NCBI GenBank assembly: GCA_014360055.1
Contig: JACIYH010000003.1
Span: 6,235-70,234 of the forward strand
Direction: 5' to 3'
Length of the DNA: 64,000 bases
DNA from: Bacillota bacterium
GTDB lineage: Bacteria > Bacillota > Sulfobacillia > JACIYH01
The position numbers and the translations under genes are program-made. Of this stretch, positions 3,482 through 61,919 are shown one piece after another; the stretch's first letter is position 1; each line of letters starts with the position of its first letter. The notes beneath the pieces were generated by a model, which saw nothing but the letters and a program-made list of their open reading frames with translations, did not search any database and was not told the origin of the DNA.

Positions 3482-3624
3482 TGCCGCGTGGCCCGGCGCC
3501 TCCTGCCGCAGGCAGGTAGGAATGGAGCGGTCCGGTGGTGAATCTAGTAAACCCGGGAGGTGGGACCTGCCCTTTGCCAGCAGCCGACAGCCCAGGAGTC
3601 CTAGCAAGCACGGAGGGATGAGCC

Positions 3625-4413: not shown

Positions 4414-4416
4414 GGG

Positions 4417-5412: not shown

Positions 5413-5424
5413 GAGCTGGTACCC

Positions 5425-32701: not shown

Positions 32702-32860
32702 ACGGGGATCCCCCAGTTACTTCGGGAAACTCAATATCCGCTATTCCAGGGAAGGGGGGGTGATTCCTTCTCCACACCCCGGGGCTCGCCGGCCACCGCG
32801 GGGCACCCCGGCAGGAACTGCTGGCAAAATGGGGAAACCAGTAAATCCGGGGGTGATGGG

Positions 32861-34234: not shown

Positions 34235-34239
34235 CCGGG

Positions 34240-46646: not shown

Positions 46647-47399
46647 GTGATGGGCCTGGGGGAGAGCTACCGCCAGGCCCTGGCCCTGGCCCGGCAAGAG
46701 CTGGGCCGGGCGTCGGGGGAGGAACTGGGCCGCCGGGTGGCGGCCGCCGGGGCGGAATTGCTACCTCCGGGCTCCCCGGGAGCCGGCCCTGCCGGGGCCA
46801 TCCGGGTCTCCTTCCTGGGCCGTCCCCTCCTGGTCTCCCTCCCCGATGCCGTCGTGGTGCCTGCGGGTGGGGCGTCACTCGCGCAGGAGGAGCCGGCGGT
46901 TGCGGGTGGACCCGCACCCGGACAGCAGGGCCGGGCGGCGGGCGGCGAGGCGGCGGAAGTGCCGCAGTGGCTGGCCATCCTCACGCTCCACTACCTGAAC
47001 GGGGCCGGGGGGGAACCCCTCACCGGCGAACTCATCCCCTTCCGGGACCTGCCCGGGGGGCGGGTGTACGACTCCAACTTCGAGAAGCGCGTCAGGGCCC
47101 GGCTGGTGAGGGCGTTCTCCCACCAGCCGGCCCTGCTCCTGGAAGTGGCCGCACGCCTGGGAGGCGAAGCGGTGGATATGGGGGACGCGGGAGTGCGGCT
47201 GGTCACCTTCCCCCGCGTACCCCTGTGGCTGGTGCTCTGGGCCGCCGACGACGAATTCCCGGCGGGGGCCAATGTGCTCTTCGACTCCAGCGTGCGGTCG
47301 TACCTGTGCACGGAGGACGCCGTGGTGCTCTGCGAGCAGGTGACATCGGAACTTATCAAAATGGTGCGGGAAGGCGAGGTACGAAGGCAAGGTGCCTAA
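46647..47399 (+). CDS. DUF3786-like protein conserved in acs clusters
   Basis: Sits between acsE and cooC, as in other acetogen acs loci (established knowledge). The sequence has no recognisable catalytic motif. Confidence 0.6.
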   Translation: MMGLGESYRQALALARQELGRASGEELGRRVAAAGAELLPPGSPGAGPAGAIRVSFLGRPLLVSLPDAVVVPAGGASLAQEEPAVAGGPAPGQQGRAAGGEAAEVPQWLAILTLHYLNGAGGEPLTGELIPFRDLPGGRVYDSNFEKRVRARLVRAFSHQPALLLEVAARLGGEAVDMGDAGVRLVTFPRVPLWLVLWAADDEFPAGANVLFDSSVRSYLCTEDAVVLCEQVTSELIKMVREGEVRRQGA

Positions 47400-48156: not shown

Positions 48157-50073
48157 GTGAGCAGGGTACAGGTGAAGTTCCTCCCCGACAACGTGACCGT
48201 GAGCGTCCCCGCGGGCACCGACCTCCTGCAGGCGGCCGCCCTGGCCGGCCTGGAGATCAAGTCGGGATGCGGCGGTGAGGGCGTGTGCGGCCGCTGCCTG
48301 GTCAGGATCCGCGAGGGCCGGGCCCGGGTGGGGGAGGGCAACATGGCCCCCAAGTACCGGCGGCTGGGCTACGTGCTGGCCTGCCGTACCCGGGTAGAGC
48401 AGGACCTGGTGGTGGAGATCCCGCCCGAGGCGCGCATGGAGACCACCCAGCAGGTGCTGGTGGATGAGCCCTCCCGGCTCCTGCAGGAGAAGGAAACCGA
48501 TGCCCTGGTGCGGTACGGGCTGCAGCCCCTGTGCCGCAAGTTCAGCGTGGCCCTCTCCGCCCCCACCCTGGTGGAGAACGCGCCCGACCTCGCCCGCCTG
48601 GTGGCCAAGCTGGGCCCGGCCAGCGGTTACTCCGAAGTGACCACCAACCTGAGCGTGCTGCGGGAGCTACCCGAGGTGCTGCGGCGGGATGACTTCCGGG
48701 TCACGTGCACCCTGGCCGACCTGGGCGACGGGCGGGCGGAGATCGTCCACCTGGAGCCGGGGGAGGCCGTGCATCCCGCTTACGGCCTGGCCGTGGACAT
48801 CGGTACCACCACCGTGGCCGCCCACTTGGTGGACCTGGCCTCGGGGGAGACCCTGGAGCGGGTGGGCACTTACAACCACCAGATCCGCTACGGTGACGAT
48901 GTCATCACCCGCATCATCCACTCGGTGCGGGAGGAGCGGGGACTGGAAGAACTGCAGCAGGCGGCCGTGGGCACCATCAACGAACTCATCGACCGGCTGC
49001 TGGCCCGACAGAACCTCTGGCCGAGCGACATCCAGGCGGTGGTGGTGGCCGGCAACACCACCATGACCCACCTCTTCCTGGGGGTGTCGCCCAAGTACCT
49101 CCGCCTGGAGCCCTACATCCCCGCCGCGGCCCGCTTCCCCAGCGTGAAGGCAGGGGAGCTGGGTCTCAAGGTGCACCCGGAAGCGCCCGTACGGTGTATG
49201 CCGGCAGTGGCGTCGTACCTGGGCGGCGACATCGTTTCGGGCCTGCTGGTTTCGGGCATGCATCAACTCCCCGGCATCGGCCTCTACATCGATATCGGGA
49301 CCAATGGCGAGATGGTGCTGGGCGGGCGCGACTTCCTGGTGGGGTGCGCCTGCTCGGCCGGTCCCGCCTTTGAGGGGTCGGGGATCACCTGCGGTATGCG
49401 GGCGACGGCGGGCGCCATCGACGGGGTGGACATCGACCCGGAGACACTGGAGGCGCGGGTGCACACGGTAGGGGGAGAGAAGCCCCTGGGGATCTGCGGC
49501 TCGGGCCTGGTGGACCTGCTGGCCAGGATGTGGCGGGCCGGCATCATCGACCGGGCGGGCAACTTCCAGCGGGTGTCCTCGCCCCGGGTGCGCTGGGGCG
49601 ACGAGGGACCCGAGTACGTGCTGGCCTGGCGCCGGGAGTCGGGCAGCGGCCGGGACGTGGTGATCACCGAGGCGGACGTGAAGAACCTTTTGCGCTCGAA
49701 AGGTGCGGTTTACGCCGGCATCCGCTCGCTCCTGCGCTCGGTGGACATGGAGCAGGATGCCGTGGAAAAGGTCTGGATCGCGGGCGGTTTTGGGAATTAC
49801 CTCAACATCAGGGCAGCCATCAGGATCGGCCTGCTTCCCGACCTGCCCCCGGAGAAGTTCGTGTTCCTGGGCAATGCCTCCGTGAAGGGGGCGCGCCTGG
49901 CCCTGCTCTCCGGAAGGGCCTGGCAGGAGGCGGAGAAGGTGGCGCAGGGCATCACCTACCTGGAACTCTCCGTGGGGAACACCTTCATGGACGAGTTCGT
50001 GTCCGCCCTGTTCCTCCCCCACACCGATTTGCGGCTGTTCCCCTCGCTGGAACGGGAGGAGGTGGAGTGGTGA
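48157..50073 (+). CDS. acsV: Reductive activator of corrinoid iron-sulfur protein (RACo/AcsV): 2Fe-2S ferredoxin domain plus an ASKHA ATPase domain
   Basis: N-terminal plant-type ferredoxin (CGGEGVCGRCLV...C), then a sugar-kinase/Hsp70/actin-fold region (DIGTTTVAAHLVD; DIGTNGEM). Confidence 0.85.
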   Translation: MSRVQVKFLPDNVTVSVPAGTDLLQAAALAGLEIKSGCGGEGVCGRCLVRIREGRARVGEGNMAPKYRRLGYVLACRTRVEQDLVVEIPPEARMETTQQVLVDEPSRLLQEKETDALVRYGLQPLCRKFSVALSAPTLVENAPDLARLVAKLGPASGYSEVTTNLSVLRELPEVLRRDDFRVTCTLADLGDGRAEIVHLEPGEAVHPAYGLAVDIGTTTVAAHLVDLASGETLERVGTYNHQIRYGDDVITRIIHSVREERGLEELQQAAVGTINELIDRLLARQNLWPSDIQAVVVAGNTTMTHLFLGVSPKYLRLEPYIPAAARFPSVKAGELGLKVHPEAPVRCMPAVASYLGGDIVSGLLVSGMHQLPGIGLYIDIGTNGEMVLGGRDFLVGCACSAGPAFEGSGITCGMRATAGAIDGVDIDPETLEARVHTVGGEKPLGICGSGLVDLLARMWRAGIIDRAGNFQRVSSPRVRWGDEGPEYVLAWRRESGSGRDVVITEADVKNLLRSKGAVYAGIRSLLRSVDMEQDAVEKVWIAGGFGNYLNIRAAIRIGLLPDLPPEKFVFLGNASVKGARLALLSGRAWQEAEKVAQGITYLELSVGNTFMDEFVSALFLPHTDLRLFPSLEREEVEW

Positions 50074-50618
50074 CCCTGGCCGAGGAGATCAGGGAACGGA
50101 GCGGTCAGGACATCAACTCCTGCTACCAATGCCACAAGTGCTCGGGGGGTTGCCCGGTGACCTTCGTGTGTGACCTCCCCCTGAGCGGGCTGGTGCGGGC
50201 CCTGCAGTTGGGACTGCGGGACGTGGCCCTGGCGTCCCGGCTGGTGTGGTTGTGTTCGGGTTGCCGGGCCTGCTTCGAGCGGTGTCCCAACGGCATCGAC
50301 GGCGCCCGGGTGCTGGACGCCCTCAAGGCCATGGCCAAAGAGGCCGACCGGGTGGAGGATCCCCAGGTGGCGGCCTTCCACGATGCCTTCCTGGGCATGG
50401 TGAGGCGCTTCGGGCGCGCCTATGAGTTGGGGATGATGGCCGAGTACAAACTGCGCACCGGCACCTTGACCCAGGACGTGCCTTTGGGCATGAAGATGAT
50501 GGCAAGGCGCAAGCTCCGCCTGCTGCCCTCCCTGGCGCCGCGGCGGGGCGACCTCGGGCGGCTGTTCCGGGAAGGGGTGCGCTACCGGAAGCGGCAGGCG
50601 GGGGGTGACCTGGCATGA
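50070..50618 (+). CDS. hdrC: Heterodisulfide reductase subunit C-like
   Basis: Two 4Fe-4S motifs (CYQCHKCSGGCP; CSGCRACFERCP). The GTG start overlaps the acsV stop, after GGGAGGAGGTG. Confidence 0.85.
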   Translation: MTLAEEIRERSGQDINSCYQCHKCSGGCPVTFVCDLPLSGLVRALQLGLRDVALASRLVWLCSGCRACFERCPNGIDGARVLDALKAMAKEADRVEDPQVAAFHDAFLGMVRRFGRAYELGMMAEYKLRTGTLTQDVPLGMKMMARRKLRLLPSLAPRRGDLGRLFREGVRYRKRQAGGDLA

Positions 50619-51550
50619 GCACCGCACCGGCGGGCGCGGCCGTTTGCGCTGACACGGCGCGGGCGACGGGGGGAGGTGGCGTGACCCTGCGACTGGCGTA
50701 CTACCCGGGGTGCTCGCTGCACTCGACGGGGTGGGAGTTTGACGCCTCCACCCGGGCGGTGTGCGCCGCGCTGGGCATCGAGTTGCGGGAGGTGCCGGGG
50801 TGGACGTGCTGCGGGTCCTCTTCCGCCCACACCCGTCCCGGTCCCCTGGCGCGCGCGCTCGGACTGCGCAACCTGGTGCTGGCGGAAGGGACGGGGCAGG
50901 AGGTCCTGGTCCCCTGCGCCGCGTGTTACAACGTGCTCAAGGGGGCGGATGCAGCCTGGCGGGCGGGCGAGGAGGAGGCTCAGGAGGCCGCTCGCCTGGT
51001 GGAAGAGGGGCTGGGGCGTCCCTACCGGGGAGAGGTGGCGGTACGCCACGTGCTGGAGGTGCTGGGCCAGCCCGGGGTACTCGAGGCCCTGCGGGCGCGG
51101 CTGAAGTCGCCCTGGCGGGTCCCCGTGGTCCCGTATTACGGGTGCCTGCTCTCCCGCCCCTCGTCCCAGCTGGGCTGTGACCGGCCCGAGCAGCCCGTGC
51201 TCATGGACCGCGTACTGGAGGCCATCGGGGCGGAGGTGCGGCCCTGGTCGTACAAGACCGACTGCTGCGGGGCTTCCCTCACCATTTCCCACGCGCCGGT
51301 GGTGGAGGTCCTGGTGAACGAACTTATCAAGCAGGCCCGGCGGGCGGGGGCGGTGGCCCTGGTGACCGCCTGCCCCATGTGTCACGCCAACCTGGACTCC
51401 CGCCAGAGCGTGACCCCGCCCATGCCCGTCCTCTACGTCACCGAGGCGGTGGGGATCGCCCTGGGCCTGCCCGAAGCGCGGCGCTGGCTGGGCGCCCACC
51501 TGGTGGATGCCCGGGGCCTGTTAGGCCCCCCCGGGGAGATGGTACCATGA
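50615..51550 (+). CDS. hdrB: Heterodisulfide reductase subunit B-like (two CCG domains)
   Basis: Cys-rich CCG motifs (CCGSSSAHT; CCGASLT). Confidence 0.9.
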   Translation: MSTAPAGAAVCADTARATGGGGVTLRLAYYPGCSLHSTGWEFDASTRAVCAALGIELREVPGWTCCGSSSAHTRPGPLARALGLRNLVLAEGTGQEVLVPCAACYNVLKGADAAWRAGEEEAQEAARLVEEGLGRPYRGEVAVRHVLEVLGQPGVLEALRARLKSPWRVPVVPYYGCLLSRPSSQLGCDRPEQPVLMDRVLEAIGAEVRPWSYKTDCCGASLTISHAPVVEVLVNELIKQARRAGAVALVTACPMCHANLDSRQSVTPPMPVLYVTEAVGIALGLPEARRWLGAHLVDARGLLGPPGEMVP

Positions 51551-54500
51551 GCGAAGTACGTGCCAACGTGACACCTCTGGCGGAGCCGCCGGCCGACGAC
51601 GGGTCGGGCGGCACCCCCCTGGGCTCGGTGCTGGTGGTGGGGGCGGGGATAGCCGGCATGCAGGCGGCCCTGGACCTGGCCTCCTCGGGCTTCCTGGTGC
51701 ACCTCTGCACCTCGGAGCCCTCCATCGGAGGCCGCATGGCCCAGCTGGACAAGACCTTCCCCACCAACGACTGCGCCATGTGCCTGCTGGGGCCCAAGAT
51801 GACCGACTGCCAGAACCACCCCAACATCGTGCTCCACACCATGAGCACCCTGGTGGGCCTGGAGGGCAAGGCGGGGGACTTCCGCGCCCTGGTGGAGGAG
51901 CGGGCCCGGTACGTGGACGTGCGCCAGTGCACGGGCTGCGGTGACTGCGCCGGGGTTTGCCCCGTGACGGTGAAGGACAGGTTCAACCTGGGCCTGTCCG
52001 AGCGCAAGGCCATCTACAAGCACTTCCCTCAGGCCGTCCCCAACGCTTACGCCATCGAGAAGAGGGGCACGCCTCCCTGCCGGGCCACCTGCCCGGCCGG
52101 GTGCAACGTGCAGGGGTACGTGGCCCTCATTTCCCAGGGCAAGTTCCGCGAAGCCCTGGAGGTGGTGCGGCGCCGGCAGCCCTTCGCCTCCATTTGCGGT
52201 CGCGCCTGTCACCACCCCTGCGAGTCCGAATGCAACCGGGGCCAGTACGACGAGCCCCTTTCCATAGCCGTGCTCAAGCGGGCGGCGGCCGACTACGGCT
52301 GGTCCGACGAGCCCCAGCTACCCGCCACCTGGCGGGAGGAGCGGGTGGCGGTGGTGGGGGCGGGCCCGGCCGGCCTGGCCGCTGCCCTCGACCTGGCCCG
52401 CGAGGGATACCGGGTGACGGTGTTCGACGCCGCGCCCGCGCCGGGCGGCATGCTGCGCTCGGCCATCCCCGAGTACCGGCTGCCCCTCGGCCTGGTGGAA
52501 AAGGAGACGGGCTGGATCCTCTCCCACGGCATGGAGTTCCGGGGCGGCATGAGGCTGGGGAGCGACTTCTCCCTGGATGACCTGGCTTCCCAGGGGTTCC
52601 GGGCCGTGATCCTGGCCCTGGGCACCCCGCGGGGCCGCGGGCTGGCCATACCCGGGGCCGAGGGCCCGGGCGTGGAACTGGCCCTGCCCTTCCTCAACCG
52701 GGCCAAGCTGGGCCCCCGTCCGCACCTGGAGGGGCGCGTGCTGGTGATCGGGGGCGGCAACGTGGCCATCGACGCCGCCCGCTGCGCCCTGCGCCTGGGC
52801 GCCACTTCGGTGGCCATGGCCTGCCTGGAATCCCGGCCCGAGATGCCCGCCCACCCGTGGGAGATCGAGGAGGCGGAGGAAGAGGGCATCCAGATCCACA
52901 CCTCCTGGGGTCCCGTGGAAGTGGTGCGGGAGGGTGGCCGCGTGCGCGGCGTGCGCCTGCGCCGCTGCACCCGGGTCTTCGACGATCAGGGCCGTTTCCG
53001 CCCCGAGTTTGACGATTCCATCACCACTTACCTGGAGGCCGACCAGGTCATCATCGCCATCGGCCAGGCCCCCGACGCCGGCTTCCTGCCCGCCCAGGGG
53101 GTGGAACTGGACGGGCGCGGCTTCATCGCCGCGGACCCCCTCACCCGGGCCACTTCCCGGCCGGGGGTGTTTGCCTGCGGCGACGGGGCGGGGGGAAAAC
53201 CCTCCATCGTGGACGCGGTGGCGGACGGCCACGAGGCGGCCGAGTCGGTACGGCGCTTCCTGCAGGGCCTGGACCTGGCCGAGGGCCGTCCTGCCAGGGT
53301 TACGGCCGCCGCTGCGGGCGGTGCCCCCGGGACGGCGGCCCAGAGGCTGGGCCCGCCCGAGGGTGTGTTGGTGGAGGTCAAGCCCCGGCTGCGCCAGCGG
53401 CTGGCCCCTGCGGCCGAAAGGGTGCGGGACTTCCGCGAGGTGTATCTGGGGTACACCCCCGAGGAGGCGCAGGAGGAAGCCTCCCGCTGCCTCAACTGCG
53501 GCATCTGCTCGGAGTGCCTGCAGTGCGTGGCCGCCTGCAAGAAGCAGGCCGTCAACCACAACGACCAGACGCGTACGGTGGAGATCCCGGTGGGGGCGGT
53601 GATCCTGGCCCCCGGCATGGGGCTCTTTGATGCAGCGGAGGCCCTGGAGTACGGCTGGTCGATATATCCCAACGTGCTCACCAGCATGGAGTTCGAACGC
53701 TACCTGTCGGCCACCGGGCCCACCGGGGGCAAGGTGGTGAGGCCGTCCGACGGCAGACGCCCCCGCCGCGTGGCCTTCATCCAGTGCGTGGGCTCGCGGG
53801 ACACCTCCTGTGCCGAGTACTGCTCGGCGGTGTGCTGCATGTACACGGCCAAGGAGGCCATCATCGCCCGCGAGCACGACCCCGACATCGAGCCCACCGT
53901 CTTCTACCTGGACCTGCGCGCCTACGGCAAGGGCTTCGACCGCTACATCGACCAGGCGAAGGCTCACGGCGTCAGGTACGTGCGCAGCATGATCTCGACG
54001 GTGAAGGAAGACCCCGTCACCCGCAACCTGATCATCCGCTACTGGTCGGGGGAGCGCCTCGAGCAGGAGGAGTTCGACCTGGTGGTGCTGGCCGTGGGGG
54101 CGCGGCCCCCGGCGGGTGCCGCCGAACTGGCGAAGGCCGCGGGCATCGAGCTGGACGAGTACGGCTTCGCCCGCACCGATCCCGTCTTCTCCGCCCTCTC
54201 CACCCGCCCGGGCGTGTTCCTGGCGGGGGCCTTCGCCGGGCCCCGGGACATCCCCGAGAGTCTGGTGGGGGCCTCGGCGGCGGCGGCTTGCGCTCACGCC
54301 CTGCTGGCGCCGGGGCGGGGCACCCAGGTTACGCCCAAGACCTACCCGCCCGAGCGGGACGTGCGCGGCGAGGAGCCCCGGGTGGGCGTGTTCGTGTGCC
54401 GCTGCGGCATCAACATCGGGGGCGTGGTGGACGTCCCCGCGGTGGTGGAGTTCGCCTCCACCCTGCCCGGGGTCGCCCACGCCCAGGAGTTCACCTACAC

Positions 54501-56040
54501 CTGCTCCCAGGACAGCCTGCAGCGCATCCGGGAGGCCATCGCCGAAAAGGGCCTCAACCGGGTGGTGGTGGCGTCCTGCTCCCTGCGCACCCACCAGTCC
54601 CTCTTCCGTGAGACCCTGCGGGAAGCCGGCCTGAACCAGTTCCTCTTCGAGATGGCGAACATCCGCGACCAGTGTTCCTGGGTCCACCGTGACGTCCCCG
54701 AGGCCGCCACCGAGAAGGCCAAAGACCTGGTGGCGATGGCGGTGGCCAAGGCCCGCACCCTGACCCCCCTGCCCATGCAGGCGGTGCCCGTGGTGCAGAA
54801 GGCCCTCATCGTGGGCGGCGGTCCCGCCGGCATGGCGGCCGCGCTGGCCCTCTCCGCCCAGGGGTTCCCCTGCTACCTGGTGGAGCGTTCGGACCGGCTG
54901 GGCGGCCAGATGCTGCGCCTGCGCCGCACCATCACCGGGGGGGACGTGCCCGCCCTGCTCGCCGACCTGGCGGGGCGGGTCATGGAGGACGCAAACGTCA
55001 CCGTGTTCACGGGGGCGGAGGTGGCCGAAGTATCCGGGCACCAGGGCCACTTCACCACCCGGCTGCGCCTGCCCGACGGCGAGGTGACGGTGGAGCACGG
55101 CGTGATCCTGGTGGCCACCGGGGTGGAGGAGTACCGGCCCACCCAGTACCTGTACGGGCAGGACGAGCGGGTGTGCACGGTCACCGAACTGGAGGGGCAG
55201 CTGGCAGCCCTGGAGCGGGAGGGCTCCCGACCACCCTGGAAACAGGTGGTGTTCATCCAGTGTGTGGGGTCCCGTGACGGCGAGCGCCCGTACTGCAGCC
55301 GGGTGTGCTGCGCCCAGAGCCTCAAGAACGCCCTCTGGCTCAAGCGGCTGGCCCCCGACTGCCACGTGGTGGTCCTGTACCGCGACATGCGGTCGTACGG
55401 CTTCCTGGAGAAGTACTACCGGGAGGCCCGTTCACTGGGCATCTCCTTCCTCCCCTATCCCGACCAGACCCCGCCCGTCCTCCGCCAGGCGGAGGGGCAA
55501 CTGTGGCTGGGCACCGTGGATGCCGCCTCGGGACGGGGCATCGAACTGCACCCCGACCTGGTGGCCCTGGCCACGGCGGTGGTGCCCGCCGCGGGGGCGA
55601 AGGAACTGGCTTCCCTGCTCAAGGTGCCCCTGGGGGAGGGCGGCTTCTTCCTGGAGACCCACATCAAGATGGGGCCGCTGGACTTCCCCTCCGCCGGCAT
55701 CTACCTGTGCGGCGGTGCCCACTGGCCCAAGTCGCTGGAGGAGGCCATCACCCAGGCCCAGGGGGCGGCCTCGCGGGCGGCCGTGGTGCTGTCGAAGGAG
55801 TCCCTGTGGGTGGGCGGCGTGGTTTCGGTGGTGGACGAGTCGAAGTGCGCGGGCTGCCTGACCTGCGTGCGCGTCTGCCCCTACCACGTGCCCTTCATCA
55901 ACGCGCGCGGGGTGGCCCAGATCGAGGCCGTGCAGTGCCAGGGATGCGGCATGTGCGCGGCCGAGTGCCCGGCGCGGGCCATCCAGCTGGGCAACTACCG
56001 CTTCGACCAGATGCAAGCCAAGCTGGCCGGCCTGCCCTAG
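51547..56040 (+). CDS. hdrA: HdrA-like flavoprotein, 1497 aa, with a GltD/NfnB-like NAD(P)H oxidoreductase module inserted and a second HdrA-like FAD/FeS unit
   Basis: HdrA N-terminal FAD fold (VLVVGAGIAGMQAALDL). GltD-type N-terminal cluster (RATCPAGCNV...ICGRACHHPCESEC) with FAD (VAVVGAGPAGLAAA) and NADPH (VLVIGGGNVAIDAAR) Rossmann motifs. A second dinucleotide fold (ALIVGGGPAGMAAALAL). A C-terminal 2x[4Fe-4S] (CAGCLTCVRVCP; CQGCGMCAAECP). The ATG at 51547 follows GGAGATGG. Confidence 0.9.
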   Translation: MSEVRANVTPLAEPPADDGSGGTPLGSVLVVGAGIAGMQAALDLASSGFLVHLCTSEPSIGGRMAQLDKTFPTNDCAMCLLGPKMTDCQNHPNIVLHTMSTLVGLEGKAGDFRALVEERARYVDVRQCTGCGDCAGVCPVTVKDRFNLGLSERKAIYKHFPQAVPNAYAIEKRGTPPCRATCPAGCNVQGYVALISQGKFREALEVVRRRQPFASICGRACHHPCESECNRGQYDEPLSIAVLKRAAADYGWSDEPQLPATWREERVAVVGAGPAGLAAALDLAREGYRVTVFDAAPAPGGMLRSAIPEYRLPLGLVEKETGWILSHGMEFRGGMRLGSDFSLDDLASQGFRAVILALGTPRGRGLAIPGAEGPGVELALPFLNRAKLGPRPHLEGRVLVIGGGNVAIDAARCALRLGATSVAMACLESRPEMPAHPWEIEEAEEEGIQIHTSWGPVEVVREGGRVRGVRLRRCTRVFDDQGRFRPEFDDSITTYLEADQVIIAIGQAPDAGFLPAQGVELDGRGFIAADPLTRATSRPGVFACGDGAGGKPSIVDAVADGHEAAESVRRFLQGLDLAEGRPARVTAAAAGGAPGTAAQRLGPPEGVLVEVKPRLRQRLAPAAERVRDFREVYLGYTPEEAQEEASRCLNCGICSECLQCVAACKKQAVNHNDQTRTVEIPVGAVILAPGMGLFDAAEALEYGWSIYPNVLTSMEFERYLSATGPTGGKVVRPSDGRRPRRVAFIQCVGSRDTSCAEYCSAVCCMYTAKEAIIAREHDPDIEPTVFYLDLRAYGKGFDRYIDQAKAHGVRYVRSMISTVKEDPVTRNLIIRYWSGERLEQEEFDLVVLAVGARPPAGAAELAKAAGIELDEYGFARTDPVFSALSTRPGVFLAGAFAGPRDIPESLVGASAAAACAHALLAPGRGTQVTPKTYPPERDVRGEEPRVGVFVCRCGINIGGVVDVPAVVEFASTLPGVAHAQEFTYTCSQDSLQRIREAIAEKGLNRVVVASCSLRTHQSLFRETLREAGLNQFLFEMANIRDQCSWVHRDVPEAATEKAKDLVAMAVAKARTLTPLPMQAVPVVQKALIVGGGPAGMAAALALSAQGFPCYLVERSDRLGGQMLRLRRTITGGDVPALLADLAGRVMEDANVTVFTGAEVAEVSGHQGHFTTRLRLPDGEVTVEHGVILVATGVEEYRPTQYLYGQDERVCTVTELEGQLAALEREGSRPPWKQVVFIQCVGSRDGERPYCSRVCCAQSLKNALWLKRLAPDCHVVVLYRDMRSYGFLEKYYREARSLGISFLPYPDQTPPVLRQAEGQLWLGTVDAASGRGIELHPDLVALATAVVPAAGAKELASLLKVPLGEGGFFLETHIKMGPLDFPSAGIYLCGGAHWPKSLEEAITQAQGAASRAAVVLSKESLWVGGVVSVVDESKCAGCLTCVRVCPYHVPFINARGVAQIEAVQCQGCGMCAAECPARAIQLGNYRFDQMQAKLAGLP

Positions 56041-56086: not shown

Positions 56087-56587
56087 TTGGTGGACGACGG
56101 AACCGAAGCGATGACGGCGGAGCGCCCCGGCGGCGGCGGTCCTGCGGCCACGGCCGGCGGCGGGCCGTCCTTTGAGCCCCGGATCGTGGCCTTCTGCTGC
56201 TACTACTGCGCGTATTCGGCCGCCGACCTGGCCGGCTCCATGCGCCTGCAGTACCCGCCCAACGTGCGCCTCATCGAGGTACCCTGCAGCGGGCGGGTGG
56301 ATCCCGCCCTGCTCCTACGGGCGCTGGAGGAAGGGGCCGACGGCGTCTACGTGGCCGGGTGCATGGAGGGGGACTGCCACTTCCAGCAGGGCAACTTCCG
56401 GGCCAAGCGCCGGGTGGGCGCCATCAAGAAGCTTCTTTCCCAGATTGGCTGGGAACCGGAGAGGGTGGAGATGTACAACGTCCCCGCCTCCGACGGCGCC
56501 CGCTTCGCCCAGGTGGCCCGCGAGTTCACGGAACGCATCAGGCAAATGGGACCCAACCCCGCCCGGGGGAAGAAGGTGAGATCGTGA
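56087..56587 (+). CDS. mvhD: MvhD-like (methyl-viologen-reducing hydrogenase delta subunit) [2Fe-2S] protein
   Basis: IVAFCCYYCAYSAADLAG...VPCSGRVD...GCMEGDCHF is the MvhD/FlpD signature. Confidence 0.85.
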   Translation: MVDDGTEAMTAERPGGGGPAATAGGGPSFEPRIVAFCCYYCAYSAADLAGSMRLQYPPNVRLIEVPCSGRVDPALLLRALEEGADGVYVAGCMEGDCHFQQGNFRAKRRVGAIKKLLSQIGWEPERVEMYNVPASDGARFAQVAREFTERIRQMGPNPARGKKVRS

Positions 56588-57252
56588 TCATAGCGGAGCA
56601 GAAGCCCATCCCCGAGATAGCGGCCCAGGTGCGCCAGTGCCGGAAGGTGCTGGTGCTGGGGTGCGGCGGCTGCGTCACCGTGTGCCAGGCGGGTGGCGAG
56701 AAGGAGGCGGAGATCCTGGCCTCGGCCCTGCGCCTGATGGGGGTGCGGGAGGGCTGGGATACCGCCTTCGACAGCATGGCCATCACCCGCCAGTGCGACC
56801 CGGAGTACCTGGACGGTATCGCGAGGAAGGTGGCGGAGTACGACTGCGTCCTCTCCCTGGGGTGCGGGGTGGGGGTCAACTTCCTGGCCGAGCGCTTCCC
56901 GCGTACCTGGGTGGTACCGGGGCTGAACACCAAGGGGGCGGGCGCCACCCTGGAGGCGGGGGTGTGGGAGGAGAGGTGCCTGGCCTGCGGGGACTGCATC
57001 CTGCACCTCACGGGCGGTATCTGCCCCATCGTCCGCTGCTCCAAGAGCCTGCTCAACGGTCCCTGCGGCGGCTCCCAGGGGGGCAAGTGCGAGATCTCCC
57101 CGGACGTGGCCTGCGGGTGGCAGCTCATCTACGACCGCCTGAAGCAGCTCGACCGGCTCGACCTCCTGCTGGAGGTCAGGGAACCCAAGGACTGGTCGCG
57201 GACCCATGACGGCGGTCTGCGCCGGGTGGTGAAGGAGGAGGCCCGGCTATGA
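56584..57252 (+). CDS. metV: Methylene-THF reductase small subunit MetV (zinc-ribbon/FeS)
   Basis: GTG start overlaps the mvhD stop. Cys-rich throughout (CRKVLVLGCGGCVTVC; CLACGDCILHLTGGICPIVRCSKSLLNGPCGGS...C). Position and order match the Moorella hdrCBA-mvhD-metVF arrangement (established knowledge). Confidence 0.8.
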   Translation: MIIAEQKPIPEIAAQVRQCRKVLVLGCGGCVTVCQAGGEKEAEILASALRLMGVREGWDTAFDSMAITRQCDPEYLDGIARKVAEYDCVLSLGCGVGVNFLAERFPRTWVVPGLNTKGAGATLEAGVWEERCLACGDCILHLTGGICPIVRCSKSLLNGPCGGSQGGKCEISPDVACGWQLIYDRLKQLDRLDLLLEVREPKDWSRTHDGGLRRVVKEEARL

Positions 57253-58199
57253 GCCAGAACGGGTGCAAGACGGAAAGCCGGCTGGAGCGCGTACTGCGGG
57301 AGGGCCACTTCGCCGTCACCGCCGAAGTGGGTCCCCCCAAGAGCGCCTCTTCCAAGGGGATATCGCGCCACGCGGCGGCCATCAAGGAGGTGGCCGACGC
57401 CATCAACCTCACCGACAACCAGACTGCCATCGTGCGCCTGTGCAGCCTGGCCGCCGCCGTGCACGTCATGCAGGCCGGCGGGGAACCGGTGATGCAGATC
57501 ACCTGCCGCGACCGCAACCGCATCGCCATCCAGTCCGACCTGCTGGGCGCCTACAGCCTGGGCGTGCGCAACGTGCTCTGCCTGACGGGGGACCACATCA
57601 GCTTCGGCAACCACCCCCAGGCCCGCACCGTTTACGACCTGGATTCGGTGCAGCTGGTGAAGCTGGTGCGCGACATGCGGGAGAACCGCCGCTTCCAGAA
57701 CGGCGAGGAGATCAAGGTGGCCCCGCCACGCTTCTTCATCGGCGCCGCGGAGAATCCCTTCGCCGACCCGGTGGAGTTCCGCGCCCTGCGCCTGGGTAAG
57801 AAGGTCAAGGCGGGCGCCGACTTCATCCAGACCCAGGCCGTGTTCGACATCGACCGCTTCGCCCGCTTCATGCAGGTGGTGCGGGACATGGGCCTGGACG
57901 AGCAGGTATTCATCCTGGCCGGCATCGTCCCCACCCGGTCGGCCAGGGCCCTCGAGCGCACCGCCACCGTGCCCGGCATGGTGGTGCCCCAGGAACTGAT
58001 CGACCGCATGAAGGGAGCGGCCGACCAGGAGAAGGAAGGCGTGGCCATCGCCGTGGAGCTGATCTCGCGCCTGCGGGAGATCCCGGGGGTGCGCGGCGTG
58101 CACATCATGGCCATCGCCTGGGAGGAAATCGTCCCCGAAATCGTCAGGGAGGCCGGCCTGCTCCCCCGTCCCCGCCTGGAGGTCCCCACCCCCGCCTAA
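57249..58199 (+). CDS. metF: 5,10-methylenetetrahydrofolate reductase
   Basis: MTHFR TIM barrel (FAVTAEVGPPKS; ITCRDRN; FDIDRF). It overlaps metV by 4 nt. Confidence 0.9.
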   Translation: MSQNGCKTESRLERVLREGHFAVTAEVGPPKSASSKGISRHAAAIKEVADAINLTDNQTAIVRLCSLAAAVHVMQAGGEPVMQITCRDRNRIAIQSDLLGAYSLGVRNVLCLTGDHISFGNHPQARTVYDLDSVQLVKLVRDMRENRRFQNGEEIKVAPPRFFIGAAENPFADPVEFRALRLGKKVKAGADFIQTQAVFDIDRFARFMQVVRDMGLDEQVFILAGIVPTRSARALERTATVPGMVVPQELIDRMKGAADQEKEGVAIAVELISRLREIPGVRGVHIMAIAWEEIVPEIVREAGLLPRPRLEVPTPA

Positions 58200-59424: not shown

Positions 59425-59584
59425 CTCCCGGGTGCCCCCTTCCAGGGGAGAATAGGGAAGTTCGGTGTGAATCCGACGCGGTCCCGCCACTGTGACCGGG
59501 GAGCCCTCCTCGAGAGCCACTGCCCGCAAGGGTGGGAAGGAGAGGAAGGGTGACGATCCGGAAGCCAGGAGACCTGCCCGGGAG
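59425..59584 (+). promoter_or_regulatory. Cobalamin (AdoCbl) riboswitch
   Basis: P1 helix CTCCCGGG (59425-32) pairs with CCCGGGAG (59577-84). Conserved cores are present: GGGAAG, GGTGTGAATCC, the B12 box CCCGCCACTGTGACC, GGGAAGGAG and GCCAGGAGACCTGCCC. Confidence 0.9.
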
Positions 59585-59639
59585 AATGTGCGTACCAGCC
59601 TTCGCGAGAAAGGCGGGTGCGTGTCGATGGGTTTCAGGA

Positions 59640-59668
59640 CCCCCGGCCCGCCCGCCGGGGGTTTTCTC
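59640..59668 (+). terminator. Intrinsic terminator of the riboswitch expression platform (CCCCCGGC/GCCGGGGG stem, loop CCGCCC, then TTTTCT)
   Basis: Read directly from the sequence. Confidence 0.7.
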
Positions 59669-59959
59669 GTGGGTGGAGGCGGAGGGTGGTTGAGCCGTCC
59701 TGCTCCAGGCAGGGAGCGCGGCCCCCGCCCCGTTCGCCAGCCCGCATCCCCCGGAAGGTGGGTACGCACGCAGGGCGCGGTACCACCTTCTTCCGGGGGA
59801 GGGAACGGCATGGAGAAGTGGAGAGGCGGAGGTAGCGGTACGGTCGGGGTGCGCCGGCTCACCGGCGCACACGCGGCACGCAGGGCGCGCGGCGTCACCG
59901 TTGCGTGCCGGGCTCGCGGGGTGCCTCGGCCCGGGGGCGCGAGCCGGGTGCCTGTGGGG

Positions 59960-60880
59960 ATGGTCGCTGTCCTGGCAGTCCTGGCGGTGGCGCTGGTGCT
60001 TGGTGGCTGCGCGTGGGTGGGCAGGTCCGCGGAGGACCGCGGCGCCGGGGCACCGCAGCCCTGGTTGAAGATGGAGGATTGGGCCGGGCGCGAGGTGGTG
60101 CTGGGCCACCGCCCCGAGCGCATCGTCTCGTTTGCCCCCTCGAACACGGAGATCCTGTTCGCCCTGGGTGCGGGGGACCGGGTGGTGGGGGTGACCGACT
60201 TCTGCAACTACCCGGAGGAAGCGAAGACCCGCACGCGCCTGGGTGGGGCCCTAAACCCCAACCTGGAGAAGCTGACGGCCCTGCAGCCGGACCTGGTGCT
60301 GTGCATCGGGGGGATGGACCAGTTCCTGGCCAAGTTGGGCGAGTTGGGCATCCCGGCGTTCGTGGTGCAGCCCACGGATTTGCAGGACGTGCTCCGTTCC
60401 GTTGAGGTCATCGGGCGCCTGGTGGGTGAGGAGCAGCGGGCCCGTGACCTGGTAGCAGACCTGCGCGGGCGGCTGGGCCGGCTGCAGGAGGCCCTGGCTG
60501 CTGTACCGGCCGATAAGCGGGTGCGCGTCTTCTACGAGGTGTGGCACGATCCCCTCATGACGGCGGGGCCCGGGAGCTTCATCCACGACGCCTTGGTGGC
60601 GGCGGGCGGGGTCAACGTGGCGGCGGATGCCCCCAAGCCGTTTTGCGAGTACAGCCTCGAGAGCCTGATCCAGAAGGATCCCCAGGCCATCGTTACCACG
60701 ATGCCCGAGAGCTACGAAGCGCTGAAGTCGAAAAAGCGGCCCGGCTGGGAGAAGGTGACGGCGGTCAGGGAAGGGCGCATTCTCCTCCTGGACCCCGACC
60801 TCATCACCAGGCCGGGGCCGCGGCTCGTGGAGGCGATCGAGCAGTTGGCGCGTTTTCTCTATCCGGATGTGGTGCGGTGA
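59960..60880 (+). CDS. btuF: Cobalamin/corrinoid ABC transporter substrate-binding lipoprotein (BtuF/TroA-like)
   Basis: Lipoprotein signal MVAVLAVLAVALVLGGC, then a class III SBP fold (RIVSFAPSNTEILFALG...VVGVTDFCNYPEE). The start is ambiguous (59951 GTG, 59960 ATG, or further upstream). The long upstream ORF is riboswitch leader. Confidence 0.8.
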   Translation: MVAVLAVLAVALVLGGCAWVGRSAEDRGAGAPQPWLKMEDWAGREVVLGHRPERIVSFAPSNTEILFALGAGDRVVGVTDFCNYPEEAKTRTRLGGALNPNLEKLTALQPDLVLCIGGMDQFLAKLGELGIPAFVVQPTDLQDVLRSVEVIGRLVGEEQRARDLVADLRGRLGRLQEALAAVPADKRVRVFYEVWHDPLMTAGPGSFIHDALVAAGGVNVAADAPKPFCEYSLESLIQKDPQAIVTTMPESYEALKSKKRPGWEKVTAVREGRILLLDPDLITRPGPRLVEAIEQLARFLYPDVVR

Positions 60881-60884
60881 GAGG

Positions 60885-61919
60885 ATGGGCCGCGTATTGA
60901 AAGCGGGGGGCGCCGGACGGTGGCTCATTCCCGCGCTCGGCATCCTCCTGGTGGGGTGCTGGGTGCTGGGGATGGGGTTGGGAAGCGTGGGGATACCCCC
61001 CGGGGAGGTGCTCCGCATCCTGGCCGCGGGTCCGGAAGCCACCGGCCCGAACGCGGACATCGTCTGGCGCCTGCGGGGTCCCCGCGTGCTCATGGGGACC
61101 GTGGTGGGGGCGGCCCTGGCCACCGGGGGCGCCACCCTGCAGGGGCTCTTCCGGAACCCCCTGGCCGATCCCTACCTCCTGGGGGTGTCGGCGGGGGCGG
61201 CGGTGGGGGCGGCTCTGGCCATGATCGGCGGGGCGGCGCGCTGGGCGGGGATGGCGGCTGTCCCCGCCTTCGCCTTCGCGGGAGGGCTGCTCACGGTGTG
61301 GGGGGTCTGGCAACTCTCCCGGGCGGGGGGCAGGGGTTCCACGGTGTCCCTCCTCCTGGCCGGGGTGGCGGTCTCCGCGGTGCTCTCGGCCCTGCTTTCG
61401 TTCCTTCTCCTCGTGAGCGGACACATGCTGGACCGCATCGTGGTGTGGCTGATGGGGAACCTGGGGGGGCGGTCCTGGTCCCAGGCGGGGTGGGTGGCGG
61501 CCTACGGCCTGGTGGGCGGGCTGGTCATGTGGCGGTACCGGCGGGAACTGGACGCCCTGGCGCTGGGTGAGGAGGCGGCCCTCAGCCTGGGGGTGGAGGT
61601 ACCGGTGGTGAAGAGGAACCTGCTCGTGGCTGCTTCTCTGGCGGCGGCTGCCGCGGTGGCCATGACGGGGGTGATCGGTTTCGTCGGTCTGATGGTGCCA
61701 CACCTGGTAAGGTTGGTGGCCGGACCCGGCCACGGGCGGCTGCTGCCGGCCTCCGCCCTCGGGGGCGCCTGCCTGCTGGTACTGTCCGACACGCTGGCCC
61801 GCTGCCTGCTGCCTCCCTGGGAGATTCCGGTGGGAGTGATCACCGCGCTCACGGGGGGGCCGTTCTTCCTGTATCTACTGTGGCGCCACCAGCGCGCGGG
61901 ATGGGAGGCAAAGCCATGA
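60885..61919 (+). CDS. btuC: FecCD-family ABC permease (BtuC-like)
   Basis: 10-TM FecCD profile (NPLADPYLLGVSAGAAVGAAL; GVITALTGGPFFLYLL). Confidence 0.85.
   Translation: MGRVLKAGGAGRWLIPALGILLVGCWVLGMGLGSVGIPPGEVLRILAAGPEATGPNADIVWRLRGPRVLMGTVVGAALATGGATLQGLFRNPLADPYLLGVSAGAAVGAALAMIGGAARWAGMAAVPAFAFAGGLLTVWGVWQLSRAGGRGSTVSLLLAGVAVSAVLSALLSFLLLVSGHMLDRIVVWLMGNLGGRSWSQAGWVAAYGLVGGLVMWRYRRELDALALGEEAALSLGVEVPVVKRNLLVAASLAAAAAVAMTGVIGFVGLMVPHLVRLVAGPGHGRLLPASALGGACLLVLSDTLARCLLPPWEIPVGVITALTGGPFFLYLLWRHQRAGWEAKP

What the first reader, a model, noticed from the sequence alone, without database searches (positions are those of the whole stretch)
51547..56040. Giant HdrA with an embedded GltD/NfnB-type NAD(P)H module inside the hdrCBA-mvhD-metVF methylene-THF reductase operon
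The HdrA-like ORF is 1497 aa, about twice the size of methanogen HdrA. It contains a complete GltD-like unit (N-terminal Cys cluster plus FAD and NADPH Rossmann motifs VAVVGAGPAGLAAA and VLVIGGGNVAIDAAR) and a second HdrA-like dinucleotide-binding/FeS unit. The physiological electron donor of the acetogen HdrABC-MvhD-MetVF methylene-THF reductase has been described as unresolved. Fusing an NAD(P)H-binding module into HdrA would wire pyridine nucleotides directly into the putative bifurcating complex. That is a testable mechanistic prediction.
Basis: partly seen in the sequence, partly recalled or inferred. Interest (0 to 1): 0.7.

Follow-up and report, generated by a model that had tools for sequence, protein, structure and literature searches.

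The report
Moorella-type giant HdrA, already described
The 1497-residue HdrA with a built-in NAD(P)H-binding module is real. It is the ordinary, already published form of this subunit in the Moorella-type methylene-tetrahydrofolate reductase operon, so it is not a new discovery.

Summary
Window 51547-56040 (+) is one ORF of 1497 aa with a complete GltD/NfnB-type module, inside an hdrC-hdrB-hdrA-mvhD-metV-metF array at the end of an acs (Wood-Ljungdahl) cluster.

The architecture is not new. The protein is collinear end to end (59% identity over 1490 residues) with the 1487-aa HdrA of Moorella thermoacetica, which sits in the same six-gene operon. Kremp et al. [quoted passage not shown]

As reported by later papers (the 2014 paper itself could not be read here), HdrA is the site of NADH oxidation, yet the complex does not reduce methylene-THF with NADH alone. 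What remains open is the third electron carrier, and this window adds nothing to that question.

The same architecture occurs in at least 575 places in species-representative genomes. The exact protein is already in NCBI (MBC7338460.1, Firmicutes MAG).

One refinement: GltD is inserted into the ferredoxin domain of the first of two HdrA-like units. One small new point: the site carries C-L-E where NADPH enzymes carry Y-R-R. That fits NADH use, and part of the family keeps Y-R-R.

The parts
51547..56040 (+). hdrA, 1497 aa: Moorella-type giant HdrA (two HdrA-like units plus an inserted GltD module)
   Evidence: ORF, start and ATGA overlap with hdrB. 59% identity over 1490 aa to the M. thermoacetica 1487-aa HdrA. 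Identical to NCBI MBC7338460.1.
51619..52068 (+). Residues 25-174: N-terminal part of thioredoxin-reductase-like unit 1 (FAD motif GAGIAG 32-37; C76/C79) and the first [4Fe-4S] motif of its inserted ferredoxin domain (C128/131/134/138)
   Evidence: Aligns to 5ODC HdrA residues 147-292. These Cys are invariant in 120 sequences.
52069..53271 (+). Residues 175-575: GltD/NfnB-type module. It holds Cys ligands for two [4Fe-4S] clusters (C178, C182, C221, C225, C229), the FAD Rossmann motif at 267-280 and the NAD(P)H Rossmann motif at 398-412, followed by C-L-E-S at 426-429.
   Evidence: Pfam Fer4_20 and Pyr_redox_2. PDB alignments to NfnA of NfnABC (9bov_A), StnC, NfnB and GltD. Predicted fold matches NfnB/GltD at target TM 0.77-0.80 and rmsd 2.3-3.2 A. 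Motif conservation.
53272..53406 (+). Residues 576-620: Ala/Gly-rich, poorly conserved linker
   Evidence: 27% identity to Moorella against 54-77% in the folded domains (69% in the short 926-941 linker). pLDDT is below 50 for residues 586-596.
53407..53550 (+). Residues 621-668: the segment ERVRDFREV..EASRCLNC (C648/C651). It is homologous to the N-terminus of NfnB but lies after the GltD body, as in StnC and NfnA. It is followed by the second [4Fe-4S] motif of the split ferredoxin domain (C654/657/660/664).
   Evidence: Alignments to 4ylf_B residues 13-42 and to 9bov_A and 8oh5_C, and to 5ODC residues 293-303. All six Cys are invariant.
53551..54321 (+). Residues 669-925: C-terminal part of thioredoxin-reductase-like unit 1, with E717/K769 (equivalents of 5ODC E356/K409) and the cluster motif C747/C759/C763/C764
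   Evidence: Alignment to 5ODC residues 293-511. E717 and K769 are present in 120 of 120 sequences. Foldseek alignment to HdrA chains spans 904-921 columns around the insertion, with target TM 0.89-0.94 to the 427-447-residue chains.
54370..56037 (+). Residues 942-1497: second HdrA-like unit. It comprises an N-terminal Cys domain (942-1083; C951/953/986/1011), thioredoxin-reductase-like unit 2 (1084-1425; GGGPAG 1090-1095; E1216/K1260; C1239/1250/1254/1255) without an inserted ferredoxin domain, and a C-terminal 2x[4Fe-4S] domain (1426-1497).
   Evidence: Alignments to 5ODC residues 2-174 and 478-648. Pfam Fer4 domains at 1428-1480. Residue conservation. There is no four-Cys motif between residues 1115 and 1327.
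50070..50618 (+). hdrC-like gene (about 182 aa, GTG start overlapping the RACo stop as GTGA)
   Evidence: Fer4_8 domain and the CoB_CoM_SS_C model. Start inferred from sequence and domain position.
50615..51550 (+). hdrB-like gene (311 aa, two CCG domains)
56087..56587 (+). mvhD (FlpD family). The start is either TTG 56087 or ATG 56111.
   Evidence: FlpD E 9.5e-54; translation.
56584..57252 (+). metV (222 aa, GTG start overlapping the mvhD stop)
   Evidence: DUF5981 / MTHFR C-terminal domain; start inferred.
57249..58199 (+). metF (316 aa, ATGA overlap with metV)
   Evidence: MTHFR Pfam E 9e-45; NCBIfam hits.

Best explanation
This gene is the ortholog, in an uncultured high-GC Bacillota MAG, of the HdrA subunit of the Moorella thermoacetica HdrCBA-MvhD-MetVF ('type IV' or Hdr-type) methylene-tetrahydrofolate reductase.

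The polypeptide is a tandem of two HdrA-like FAD/FeS units. A complete GltD/NfnB-type module is inserted into the ferredoxin domain of the first unit.

The most likely mechanism is as follows; it is inferred from homologous structures and from what later papers report of the Moorella biochemistry. NADH binds the second Rossmann fold of the inserted module and gives a hydride to the module's FAD. Electrons then leave one at a time through the module's two [4Fe-4S] clusters into the two clusters of the split ferredoxin domain. From there they reach the FAD of HdrA-like unit 1, which carries the E/K signature of bifurcating HdrA flavins. They pass on through unit 2 and HdrBC to MetV and MetF, where methylene-THF is reduced. 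A third, still unidentified redox partner is needed for turnover, probably contacted through MvhD or the membrane.

Shown here: the architecture, orthology, motif conservation, fold and synteny. Not shown here: any activity of this protein.
For: - Orthology. The protein is collinear with the M. thermoacetica 1487-aa HdrA at 59% identity. That gene lies between hdrC-hdrB and mvhD-metV-metF.
- Published architecture. PMC9430772 states the Moorella domain architecture and cofactor count.
- Published biochemistry. HdrA is the site of NADH oxidation, with 190 U/mg NADH:BV activity. The complex shows no NADH-to-methylene-THF activity and no ferredoxin reduction.
- Domain boundaries. They come from alignments to 5ODC HdrA and to NfnB, StnC and NfnA.
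- Conservation. All cofactor motifs and FeS cysteines are conserved, and E717/K769 are invariant, across 120 sequences. None of the 119 long homologs lacks the GltD region.
- Structure model. The AlphaFold2 model of residues 1-940 has pLDDT 88.6 and pTM 0.87. It matches GltD-type modules at target TM 0.77-0.80. It matches HdrA across the whole model around the insertion, at target TM up to 0.94.
- Operon structure. Four-base start/stop overlaps link RACo-hdrC, hdrC-hdrB, hdrB-hdrA, mvhD-metV and metV-metF.
- Synteny elsewhere. The same array with all five partners is found in 27 of 81 fetched loci from several phyla.
- NADH preference. C-L-E-S replaces the Y-R-R of the NADPH enzymes at the end of the second Rossmann beta-2 strand.
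Against: - No experiment exists on this protein.
- The Moorella data could only be read through later papers, because Mock et al. 2014 is not in the held library.
- The NAD(P)H motif reads GGGNVA (GxGxxA). PMC12054007 treats that form as NADP-leaning, so sequence-based specificity is ambiguous.
- The Moorella complex does not couple NADH to methylene-THF in vitro, so the complete electron path is unproven.
- Whether flavin 1, flavin 2, both or neither bifurcates is unknown.
- No solved structure of any giant HdrA was found in the PDB copy searched.
Confidence: 0.88

Rival explanations
1. The embedded module is NADPH-specific, like NfnB, StnC and GltD, and not NADH-specific. This organism's reductase would then draw on the NADPH pool.
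For: The second Rossmann motif is GGGNVA (GxGxxA), as in the NADPH enzymes. All the closest solved relatives of the module are NADPH sites.
Against: The two-arginine position (Y-R-R in NfnB, StnC and 9bov) is C-L-E-S here, with an acidic residue. PMC6405883 says two conserved arginines bind the extra phosphate of NADP; placing them at Y-R-R is my inference. The Moorella ortholog has the identical CLESR motif and is reported to oxidise NADH.
Confidence: 0.1
2. The GltD module is a vestigial or purely structural insert with no catalytic role.
For: The Moorella complex does not reduce methylene-THF with NADH in vitro. S. ovata HdrA lacks the module but belongs to an analogous operon.
Against: Every glycine of both dinucleotide motifs and every FeS cysteine is invariant in 120 homologs at 50-62% overall identity. 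The module folds confidently. Moorella HdrA has 190 U/mg NADH:BV activity against 0.5 U/mg for the GltD-less S. ovata HdrA.
Confidence: 0.03
3. The long ORF is an assembly or gene-calling artefact that joins a gltD-like gene to hdrA genes.
For: The source is a MAG, and in 69% GC DNA long spurious ORFs are common.
Against: The same collinear 1465-1580-aa protein occurs in more than 100 independent 90%-identity clusters, including complete genomes of isolates (Moorella, Thermanaeromonas, Metallumcola, Anaeroselena). It also occurs at 575 or more places in species-representative genomes. The GltD part interrupts an HdrA fold that re-forms around it.
Confidence: 0.01
4. The enzyme is the same, but it runs mainly in the oxidative direction (methyl-THF to methylene-THF) in an organism that uses the Wood-Ljungdahl pathway in reverse, for example a syntrophic acetate oxidiser, and not in acetogenesis.
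For: The architecture and operon are widespread outside classical acetogens: Dehalococcoidia, Planctomycetota, Fraserbacteria, Thermincola, Desulfosporosinus. The window also carries EtfAB plus a membrane FeS oxidoreductase of a type I recall from syntrophs; that resemblance was not tested here. T. phaeum uses a related reductase in both directions.
Against: Nothing in the window fixes the direction. The adjacent acs cluster (CODH/ACS, CFeSP, AcsE, RACo) serves both directions.
Confidence: 0.3

Closest known systems
HdrA (Moth_1194 type, 1487 aa, 162.8 kDa) of the Moorella thermoacetica HdrCBA-MvhD-MetVF type IV methylene-THF reductase (Mock et al. 2014; described in PMC9430772, PMC8760232)
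   Same: Same length class and the same domain order from end to end (59% identity over 1490 aa). Same GltD insertion, the same CLESR motif at the NAD(P)H site, the same E/K pairs in both flavin units, and the same six-gene operon next to acs genes.
   Different: Only lineage-level differences: a roughly 14-residue longer N-terminus, a diverged Ala/Gly-rich linker (residues 576-620, 27% identity), a 69% GC host, and acsE not placed directly upstream of hdrC.
HdrA of the Sporomusa ovata Hdr-type MTHFR (101 kDa; PMC9430772)
   Same: Sits in an hdrCBA-mvhD-metVF cluster, has two thioredoxin-reductase-like domains, and lacks the inserted ferredoxin domain in the C-terminal unit.
   Different: S. 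ovata HdrA has no GltD module, only five predicted clusters and two FAD sites, and only 0.5 U/mg NADH:BV activity.
Methanogen HdrA (PDB 5ODC, 8RVU, 7BKB)
   Same: Each unit keeps the thioredoxin-reductase fold, the Cx(10-11)CxxxCC cluster motif and the E356/K409 equivalents. The N-terminal domain and C-terminal ferredoxin domain are present in unit 2.
   Different: The methanogen protein has a single unit of about 650 aa with no NAD(P)H site. Its inserted ferredoxin domain is free to reduce ferredoxin. Its partners are MvhAG or Fdh and the CoM-S-S-CoB chemistry. The NCBIfam HdrA and HdrA2 models score below their cut-offs here.
GltD-type NADPH input modules of StnC (8OH5) and NfnA of NfnABC (9BOV, 9N5U), and NfnB/NfnL (4YLF, 5JCA)
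   Same: Same fold (target TM 0.77-0.80 to NfnB/GltD), 33-40% identity, the same two [4Fe-4S] plus FAD plus NAD(P)H layout, and the Arg of IPEYRLP. The 'ER..F.EV...EA.RCL.CG' segment follows the body, as in StnC and NfnA and unlike NfnB, where it is N-terminal.
   Different: Here the module is inserted into an HdrA ferredoxin domain instead of being fused to a NuoG-like domain or paired with NfnA/S. It has C-L-E in place of Y-R-R at the 2'-phosphate position.
[quoted passage not shown]
   Same: The same concept: an HdrA with an inserted GltD NADH site next to the inserted ferredoxin domain, followed by mvhD, and proposed to take NADH directly.
   Different: The genomic partners differ (dsr, fdh or mvhADG instead of metVF). 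The archaeal type III proteins are single-unit. The window protein combines the type II (tandem) and type III (GltD insertion) features. No sequence comparison with HdrL was run here.

Membership tests
Type IV (Hdr-type) methylene-THF reductase operon, HdrCBA-MvhD-MetVF | metF (MTHFR domain) directly preceded by metV (MTHFR C-terminal / DUF5981 domain) | tested here: met
   Pfam MTHFR E 9e-45 and DUF5981 E 1e-35, with an ATGA overlap.
Type IV (Hdr-type) methylene-THF reductase operon, HdrCBA-MvhD-MetVF | hdrC, hdrB (two CCG domains), hdrA and mvhD immediately upstream on the same strand | tested here: met
   Four-base overlaps or a 46-nt gap between genes. The same order occurs in Moorella and, with all five partners, in 27 of 81 loci.
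Type IV (Hdr-type) methylene-THF reductase operon, HdrCBA-MvhD-MetVF | HdrA orthologous to the M. thermoacetica 1487-aa HdrA, with the GltD NADH module | tested here: met
   59% identity, collinear over 1490 aa. Architecture as described in PMC9430772.
Type IV (Hdr-type) methylene-THF reductase operon, HdrCBA-MvhD-MetVF | Six subunits co-purify; NADH:benzyl viologen and reduced-viologen:methylene-THF activities | not testable with these tools
   Biochemistry is known only for Moorella, and only.
HdrA (methanogen-type bifurcating flavoprotein, PDB 5ODC) | Thioredoxin-reductase-like FAD domain with GxGxxG, the Cx(10-11)CxxxCC [4Fe-4S] motif and the E356/K409 pair | tested here: met
   Unit 1: G32-G37, C747/759/763/764, E717/K769. 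Unit 2: G1090-G1095, C1239/1250/1254/1255, E1216/K1260.
HdrA (methanogen-type bifurcating flavoprotein, PDB 5ODC) | Scores above the curated NCBIfam cut-off for CoB-CoM heterodisulfide reductase HdrA or HdrA2 | tested here: not met
   954 bits against a cut-off of 1100 (HdrA2). 683 against 1400 and 647 against 1300 (HdrA equivalogs). The protein is HdrA-like, not a heterodisulfide reductase subunit by these models.
HdrA (methanogen-type bifurcating flavoprotein, PDB 5ODC) | Contiguous inserted ferredoxin domain (2x[4Fe-4S]) exposed for ferredoxin binding | tested here: not met
   In unit 1 the two cluster motifs (C128-138 and C654-664) are separated by about 480 residues of GltD module and linker. 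Unit 2 has no such motif.
GltD / NfnB-type FAD-FeS NAD(P)H oxidoreductase module | Fer4_20-type Cys-rich domain, FAD Rossmann motif and NAD(P)H Rossmann motif in the canonical order and fold | tested here: met
   Pfam Fer4_20 61 bits (cut-off 25.8) and Pyr_redox_2 190 bits. Alignments. Fold match at target TM 0.77-0.80 and rmsd 2.3-3.2 A. Glycines and cysteines invariant.
GltD / NfnB-type FAD-FeS NAD(P)H oxidoreductase module | Two conserved arginines that bind the 2'-phosphate of NADP(H) (Y-R-R after beta-2 of the second Rossmann fold) | tested here: not met
   The window has C-L-E-S at residues 426-429. NfnB, NfnL, StnC and 9bov have Y-R-R. The family splits 100 to 16, or 50 to 29 among loci. 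The role of two arginines is from PMC6405883; their assignment to Y-R-R is my inference from the alignment.
HdrL (D. autotrophicum) and archaeal type III HdrA | GltD domain inserted at the inserted ferredoxin domain of an HdrA, with the gene followed by mvhD | tested here: met
   Insertion point; mvhD downstream. Family descriptions are from PMC2702500 and PMC12054007. No direct sequence comparison with those proteins was made.

The most novel reading that the evidence does not exclude
The only possibly new point is the signature at the end of beta-2 in the module's NAD(P)H fold, which splits metVF-linked giant HdrAs into two classes. The C-L-E class includes this MAG, Moorella and Dehalococcoidia (16 of the 27 fully syntenic loci). 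The Y-R-R class includes Thermincola, Phosphitispora, Heliobacteriaceae and Fraserbacteria (11 of 27). This would mean that type IV methylene-THF reductases come in NADH-fed and NADPH-fed versions, with different consequences for the redox balance of the Wood-Ljungdahl pathway in those lineages.
Probability: 0.4. Interest if true: 0.3.

Novelty: already known. Interest (0 to 1): 0.15.

Why it matters
Type IV methylene-THF reductase is a real open problem in acetogen bioenergetics: the third electron carrier and the site of bifurcation or confurcation are unknown. This window only shows another ortholog of the published Moorella enzyme. It does not make the question more testable than it already is.

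The finding has three practical uses:
- It shows that automatic annotation ("FAD-dependent oxidoreductase") hides a well-described subunit.
- It maps the domains precisely: a GltD module of the StnC/NfnA kind is inserted into the split ferredoxin domain of the first HdrA unit.
- It points to a CLE versus YRR signature that could guide the choice of NADH- versus NADPH-type enzymes for biochemistry or cryo-EM.

Tried and rejected
- Reading Mock et al. 2014 (PMC4135698) directly. It is not held, so its results are cited through PMC9430772, PMC8760232, PMC5861303, PMC8578096 and two 2026 Moorella papers.
- Looking for a solved structure of a giant HdrA or of the MetFV-Hdr complex. Sequence search of the PDB returned only methanogen HdrA and GltD-type modules, and Foldseek did the same.
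- Looking for a dedicated family model. No NCBIfam or Pfam model covers the full architecture. The best model (HdrA2) scores below its cut-off.
- Terminator and promoter scan around the 3' end of the operon. It gave nothing above the shuffle expectation that bears on the finding.
- Using the conserved N5-contacting Arg (IPEYRLP) to decide whether the GltD flavin bifurcates. Rejected, because the non-bifurcating StnC keeps it too.
- Using GxGxxG versus GxGxxA as the specificity criterion. Rejected as decisive, because the reportedly NADH-oxidising Moorella protein carries GxGxxA.
- Fusion or assembly artefact. Rejected.
- Species-level placement of the MAG. The species-genome scan gave no hit above 62% identity. 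Only "Firmicutes/Bacillota bacterium" is available from NCBI names.

Full report
**1. The observation**

The frame holding the finding is open from 51379 to 56040. The ATG at 51547 is preceded by GGGGAGA and overlaps the stop codon of the upstream gene as ATGA. This gives a product of 1497 aa, the same start NCBI uses for the identical deposited protein MBC7338460.1.

Pfam finds a Fer4_20 domain at residues 174-252 and a full-length Pyr_redox_2 match at 266-561 (E 1e-55). It also finds further Pyr_redox_2 stretches and a C-terminal 2x[4Fe-4S] domain at 1428-1480.

The flanking genes are all on the + strand:
- an HdrC-like Fer4 protein (about 50070-50618);
- HdrB with two CCG domains (50615-51550);
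- MvhD/FlpD (56087-56587);
- MetV (56584-57252);
- MetF (57249-58199).

Most of these genes overlap their neighbour by four bases. Directly upstream lie CODH (AcsA), ACS (AcsB), the CFeSP large subunit, AcsE, a DUF3786 protein, CooC and RACo.

**2. Anatomy**

Alignment to the solved methanogen HdrA (5ODC, 654 aa) breaks into four collinear pieces:

| Window residues | HdrA (5ODC) residues |
|---|---|
| 29-174 | 147-292 |
| 654-868 | 293-511 |
| 942-1114 | 2-174 |
| 1328-1495 | 478-648 |

The roughly 480 residues between the first two pieces align over 175-575 to GltD-type modules. The best match is NfnA of the C. saccharolyticus NfnABC complex (9bov_A, 335 bits). Next come StnC (8oh5_C), T. 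sibiricus NfnA (9n5u_A), T. maritima NfnB (4ylf_B), P. furiosus NfnL (5jca_L) and GltD.

The protein therefore holds two HdrA-like units, not a GltD unit followed by one HdrA unit:
- Unit 1 (residues 25-925) lacks the N-terminal HdrA domain. Its inserted ferredoxin domain is split between the first cluster motif (C128-C138) and the second (C654-C664) by the GltD module plus a poorly conserved linker.
- Unit 2 (residues 942-1497) has the N-terminal Cys domain and the C-terminal ferredoxin domain. It has no inserted ferredoxin domain.

The segment ERVRDFREV..EASRCLNC (621-651) is homologous to the N-terminus of NfnB. Here it lies after the GltD body, as in StnC and NfnA.

An AlphaFold2 model of residues 1-940, built on 61 homologs, is confident (mean pLDDT 88.6, pTM 0.87). 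Only the N-terminus, three short loops and the 586-596 linker fall below pLDDT 50. Foldseek matches the model to NfnB and GltD at target TM 0.77-0.80 and rmsd 2.3-3.2 A. It matches HdrA chains over 904-921 alignment columns, at target TM 0.89-0.94 for the 427-447-residue chains. The HdrA fold thus re-forms around the insertion.

**3. Conservation**

I aligned the window protein with the 119 long homologs among the best 120 hits (50-62% identity). The results:
- Every glycine of the three FAD motifs and of the NAD(P)H motif is invariant or nearly so.
- Every cysteine of every cluster motif is invariant.
- The equivalents of the 5ODC flavin-environment residues E356/K409 are E717/K769 (120 of 120) and E1216/K1260 (117 and 89 of 120).
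- No member lacks the GltD region.

**4. What it is**

The protein is collinear with a 1487-aa protein of Neomoorella (Moorella) thermoacetica: 885 of 1490 residues identical, with only short gaps. That gene lies in the order hdrC-hdrB-[1487 aa]-mvhD-metV-metF, downstream of RACo, cooC, acsD and acsE.

Kremp et al. 2022 (PMC9430772) describe exactly this protein. M. thermoacetica HdrA is 162.8 kDa and 1487 aa. [quoted passage not shown] The same paper and Oppinger et al. 2021 (PMC8760232) report from Mock et al. 2014 that heterologously produced HdrA is the site of NADH oxidation (190 U/mg with benzyl viologen). [quoted passage not shown] The complex does not couple NADH to methylene-THF and does not use ferredoxin (also 15).

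Two 2026 papers still call NADH an established carrier and the third carrier unknown. They propose NADH plus menaquinol confurcation. I could not read Mock et al. 2014 itself.

**5. Distribution**

- Of the 120 best clusters in the 5.8-billion-protein search, 119 are 1465-1579 aa long and cover 97-100% of the query. They come from Moorella, Thermanaeromonas, Calderihabitans, Metallumcola, Anaeroselena, Sporomusaceae, Desulfolucanica, Heliobacteriaceae, Chloroflexota and Gemmatimonadota.
- Among the 81 loci held, 27 carry all five partners in the same arrangement, 40 carry metV or metF, and 61 carry mvhD.
- The fully syntenic set spans Bacillota, Dehalococcoidia, Anaerolineae, Fraserbacteria and unclassified phyla. 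Planctomycetota and a Symbiobacterium MAG appear among the loci that carry metV or metF.
- Thermoplasmatota versions lack metVF.
- Deep-sea Chloroflexi with the Moorella-type cluster were already published in 2017.
- HdrA/GltD fusions have been named before: HdrL in 2009 and type III HdrA in 2025.

**6. Mechanism**

The following is inferred, not shown. The closest solved relatives of the insert are the non-bifurcating NADPH input modules of StnC and NfnA. In these, the FAD takes a hydride and feeds a chain of [4Fe-4S] clusters one electron at a time.

By analogy, and given the reported Moorella activity, NADH is oxidised at the inserted module. Electrons pass through its two clusters into the two clusters of the split ferredoxin domain, and then to the FAD of unit 1. 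The 2025 study of archaeal type III HdrA reached the same reading from structure predictions. It noted that the insert would block ferredoxin access to that domain, which fits the reported lack of ferredoxin reduction.

The path onward goes through unit 2, HdrBC, MetV and MetF. The identity of the third partner cannot be derived from this window.

**7. NADH or NADPH?**

NfnB, NfnL, StnC and 9bov_A all carry Y-R-R at the end of beta-2 of the second Rossmann fold. The window and Moorella carry C-L-E-S there. PMC6405883 states that two conserved arginines bind the extra phosphate of NADP in NfnB; equating them with Y-R-R is my inference from the alignment.

An acidic residue at this position fits NADH, in agreement with the reported Moorella biochemistry. 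The motif itself is GxGxxA, which PMC12054007 reads as NADP-leaning, so the sequence evidence is not unanimous.

The family is split. C-L-E occurs in 100 and Y-R-R in 16 of 120 proteins. Among loci the split is 50 to 29, and 11 of the 27 fully syntenic metVF-linked loci are Y-R-R: Thermincola, Phosphitispora, Heliobacteriaceae, Fraserbacteria and others. I did not find this stated in the papers I read. It is the only possibly new item, and it is a prediction only.

**8. Verdict**

The architecture, its occurrence in this operon and its role as the pyridine-nucleotide entry point are already published, and the proposed test was done in 2014. The window protein is one more ortholog, from an uncultured 69% GC Bacillota MAG, of a known enzyme. 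Novelty: already known. Interest: low.

Noticed in passing
window 52822-52833 (residues 426-429 of HdrA); loci L010-L012, L014-L017, L028, L042, L052, L070: The motif after beta-2 of the NAD(P)H fold is C-L-E-S in the window and in Moorella. It is Y-R-R (as in the NADPH enzymes NfnB and StnC) in 29 of 79 related loci, including 11 of the 27 loci with the full hdrCB-A-mvhD-metVF synteny. This suggests NADH-type and NADPH-type subfamilies.
   Followed up: partly
window 3522-7503 (+): A probable etfB (3522-4328, no Pfam hit at 1e-5) and etfA (4417-5412) are followed by a 692-aa membrane protein with a Nitrate_red_gam-type transmembrane domain, a Fer4 dicluster and two CCG domains (5425-7503). From memory, this resembles the EtfAB plus HdrD/DsrK-like quinone-linked oxidoreductase arrangement of syntrophs. 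It could bear on menaquinone-linked electron flow in this organism.
   Followed up: no
window 46647-47399 (+): A DUF3786 protein is encoded inside the acs cluster, between acsE and cooC. The corresponding stretch of the Moorella locus (L001) shows no such gene, and the gene order differs: here acsE does not sit directly upstream of hdrC.
   Followed up: no
window 59492-62800 (+): A Peripla_BP_2 / FecCD / ABC_tran transporter (of the iron-siderophore or cobalamin uptake type) lies about 1.3 kb downstream of metF. It may be relevant to corrinoid supply for the Wood-Ljungdahl pathway.
   Followed up: no
window 31946-35598 (+): Two tandem PmbA/TldD-family metallopeptidase genes. The first ORF (762 aa) has a roughly 320-residue N-terminal extension with no Pfam match; this may be an over-long ORF call in high-GC DNA.
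   Followed up: no
window 51547-56040; NCBI MBC7338460.1: The deposited protein is named only 'FAD-dependent oxidoreductase', and no NCBIfam model reaches its cut-off on it (the best, HdrA2, scores 954 against 1100). A well-characterised subunit family therefore lacks a dedicated annotation model.
   Followed up: yes
loci L026, L027, L040, L047-L049, L054, L073, L077, L081: In several Chloroflexia, Gemmatimonadota and Thermoplasmatota loci the match to the giant HdrA extends over 6.3-11.8 kb with mvhD but no metVF. This points to further HdrA-like genes in tandem and to other, unidentified partners.
   Followed up: no
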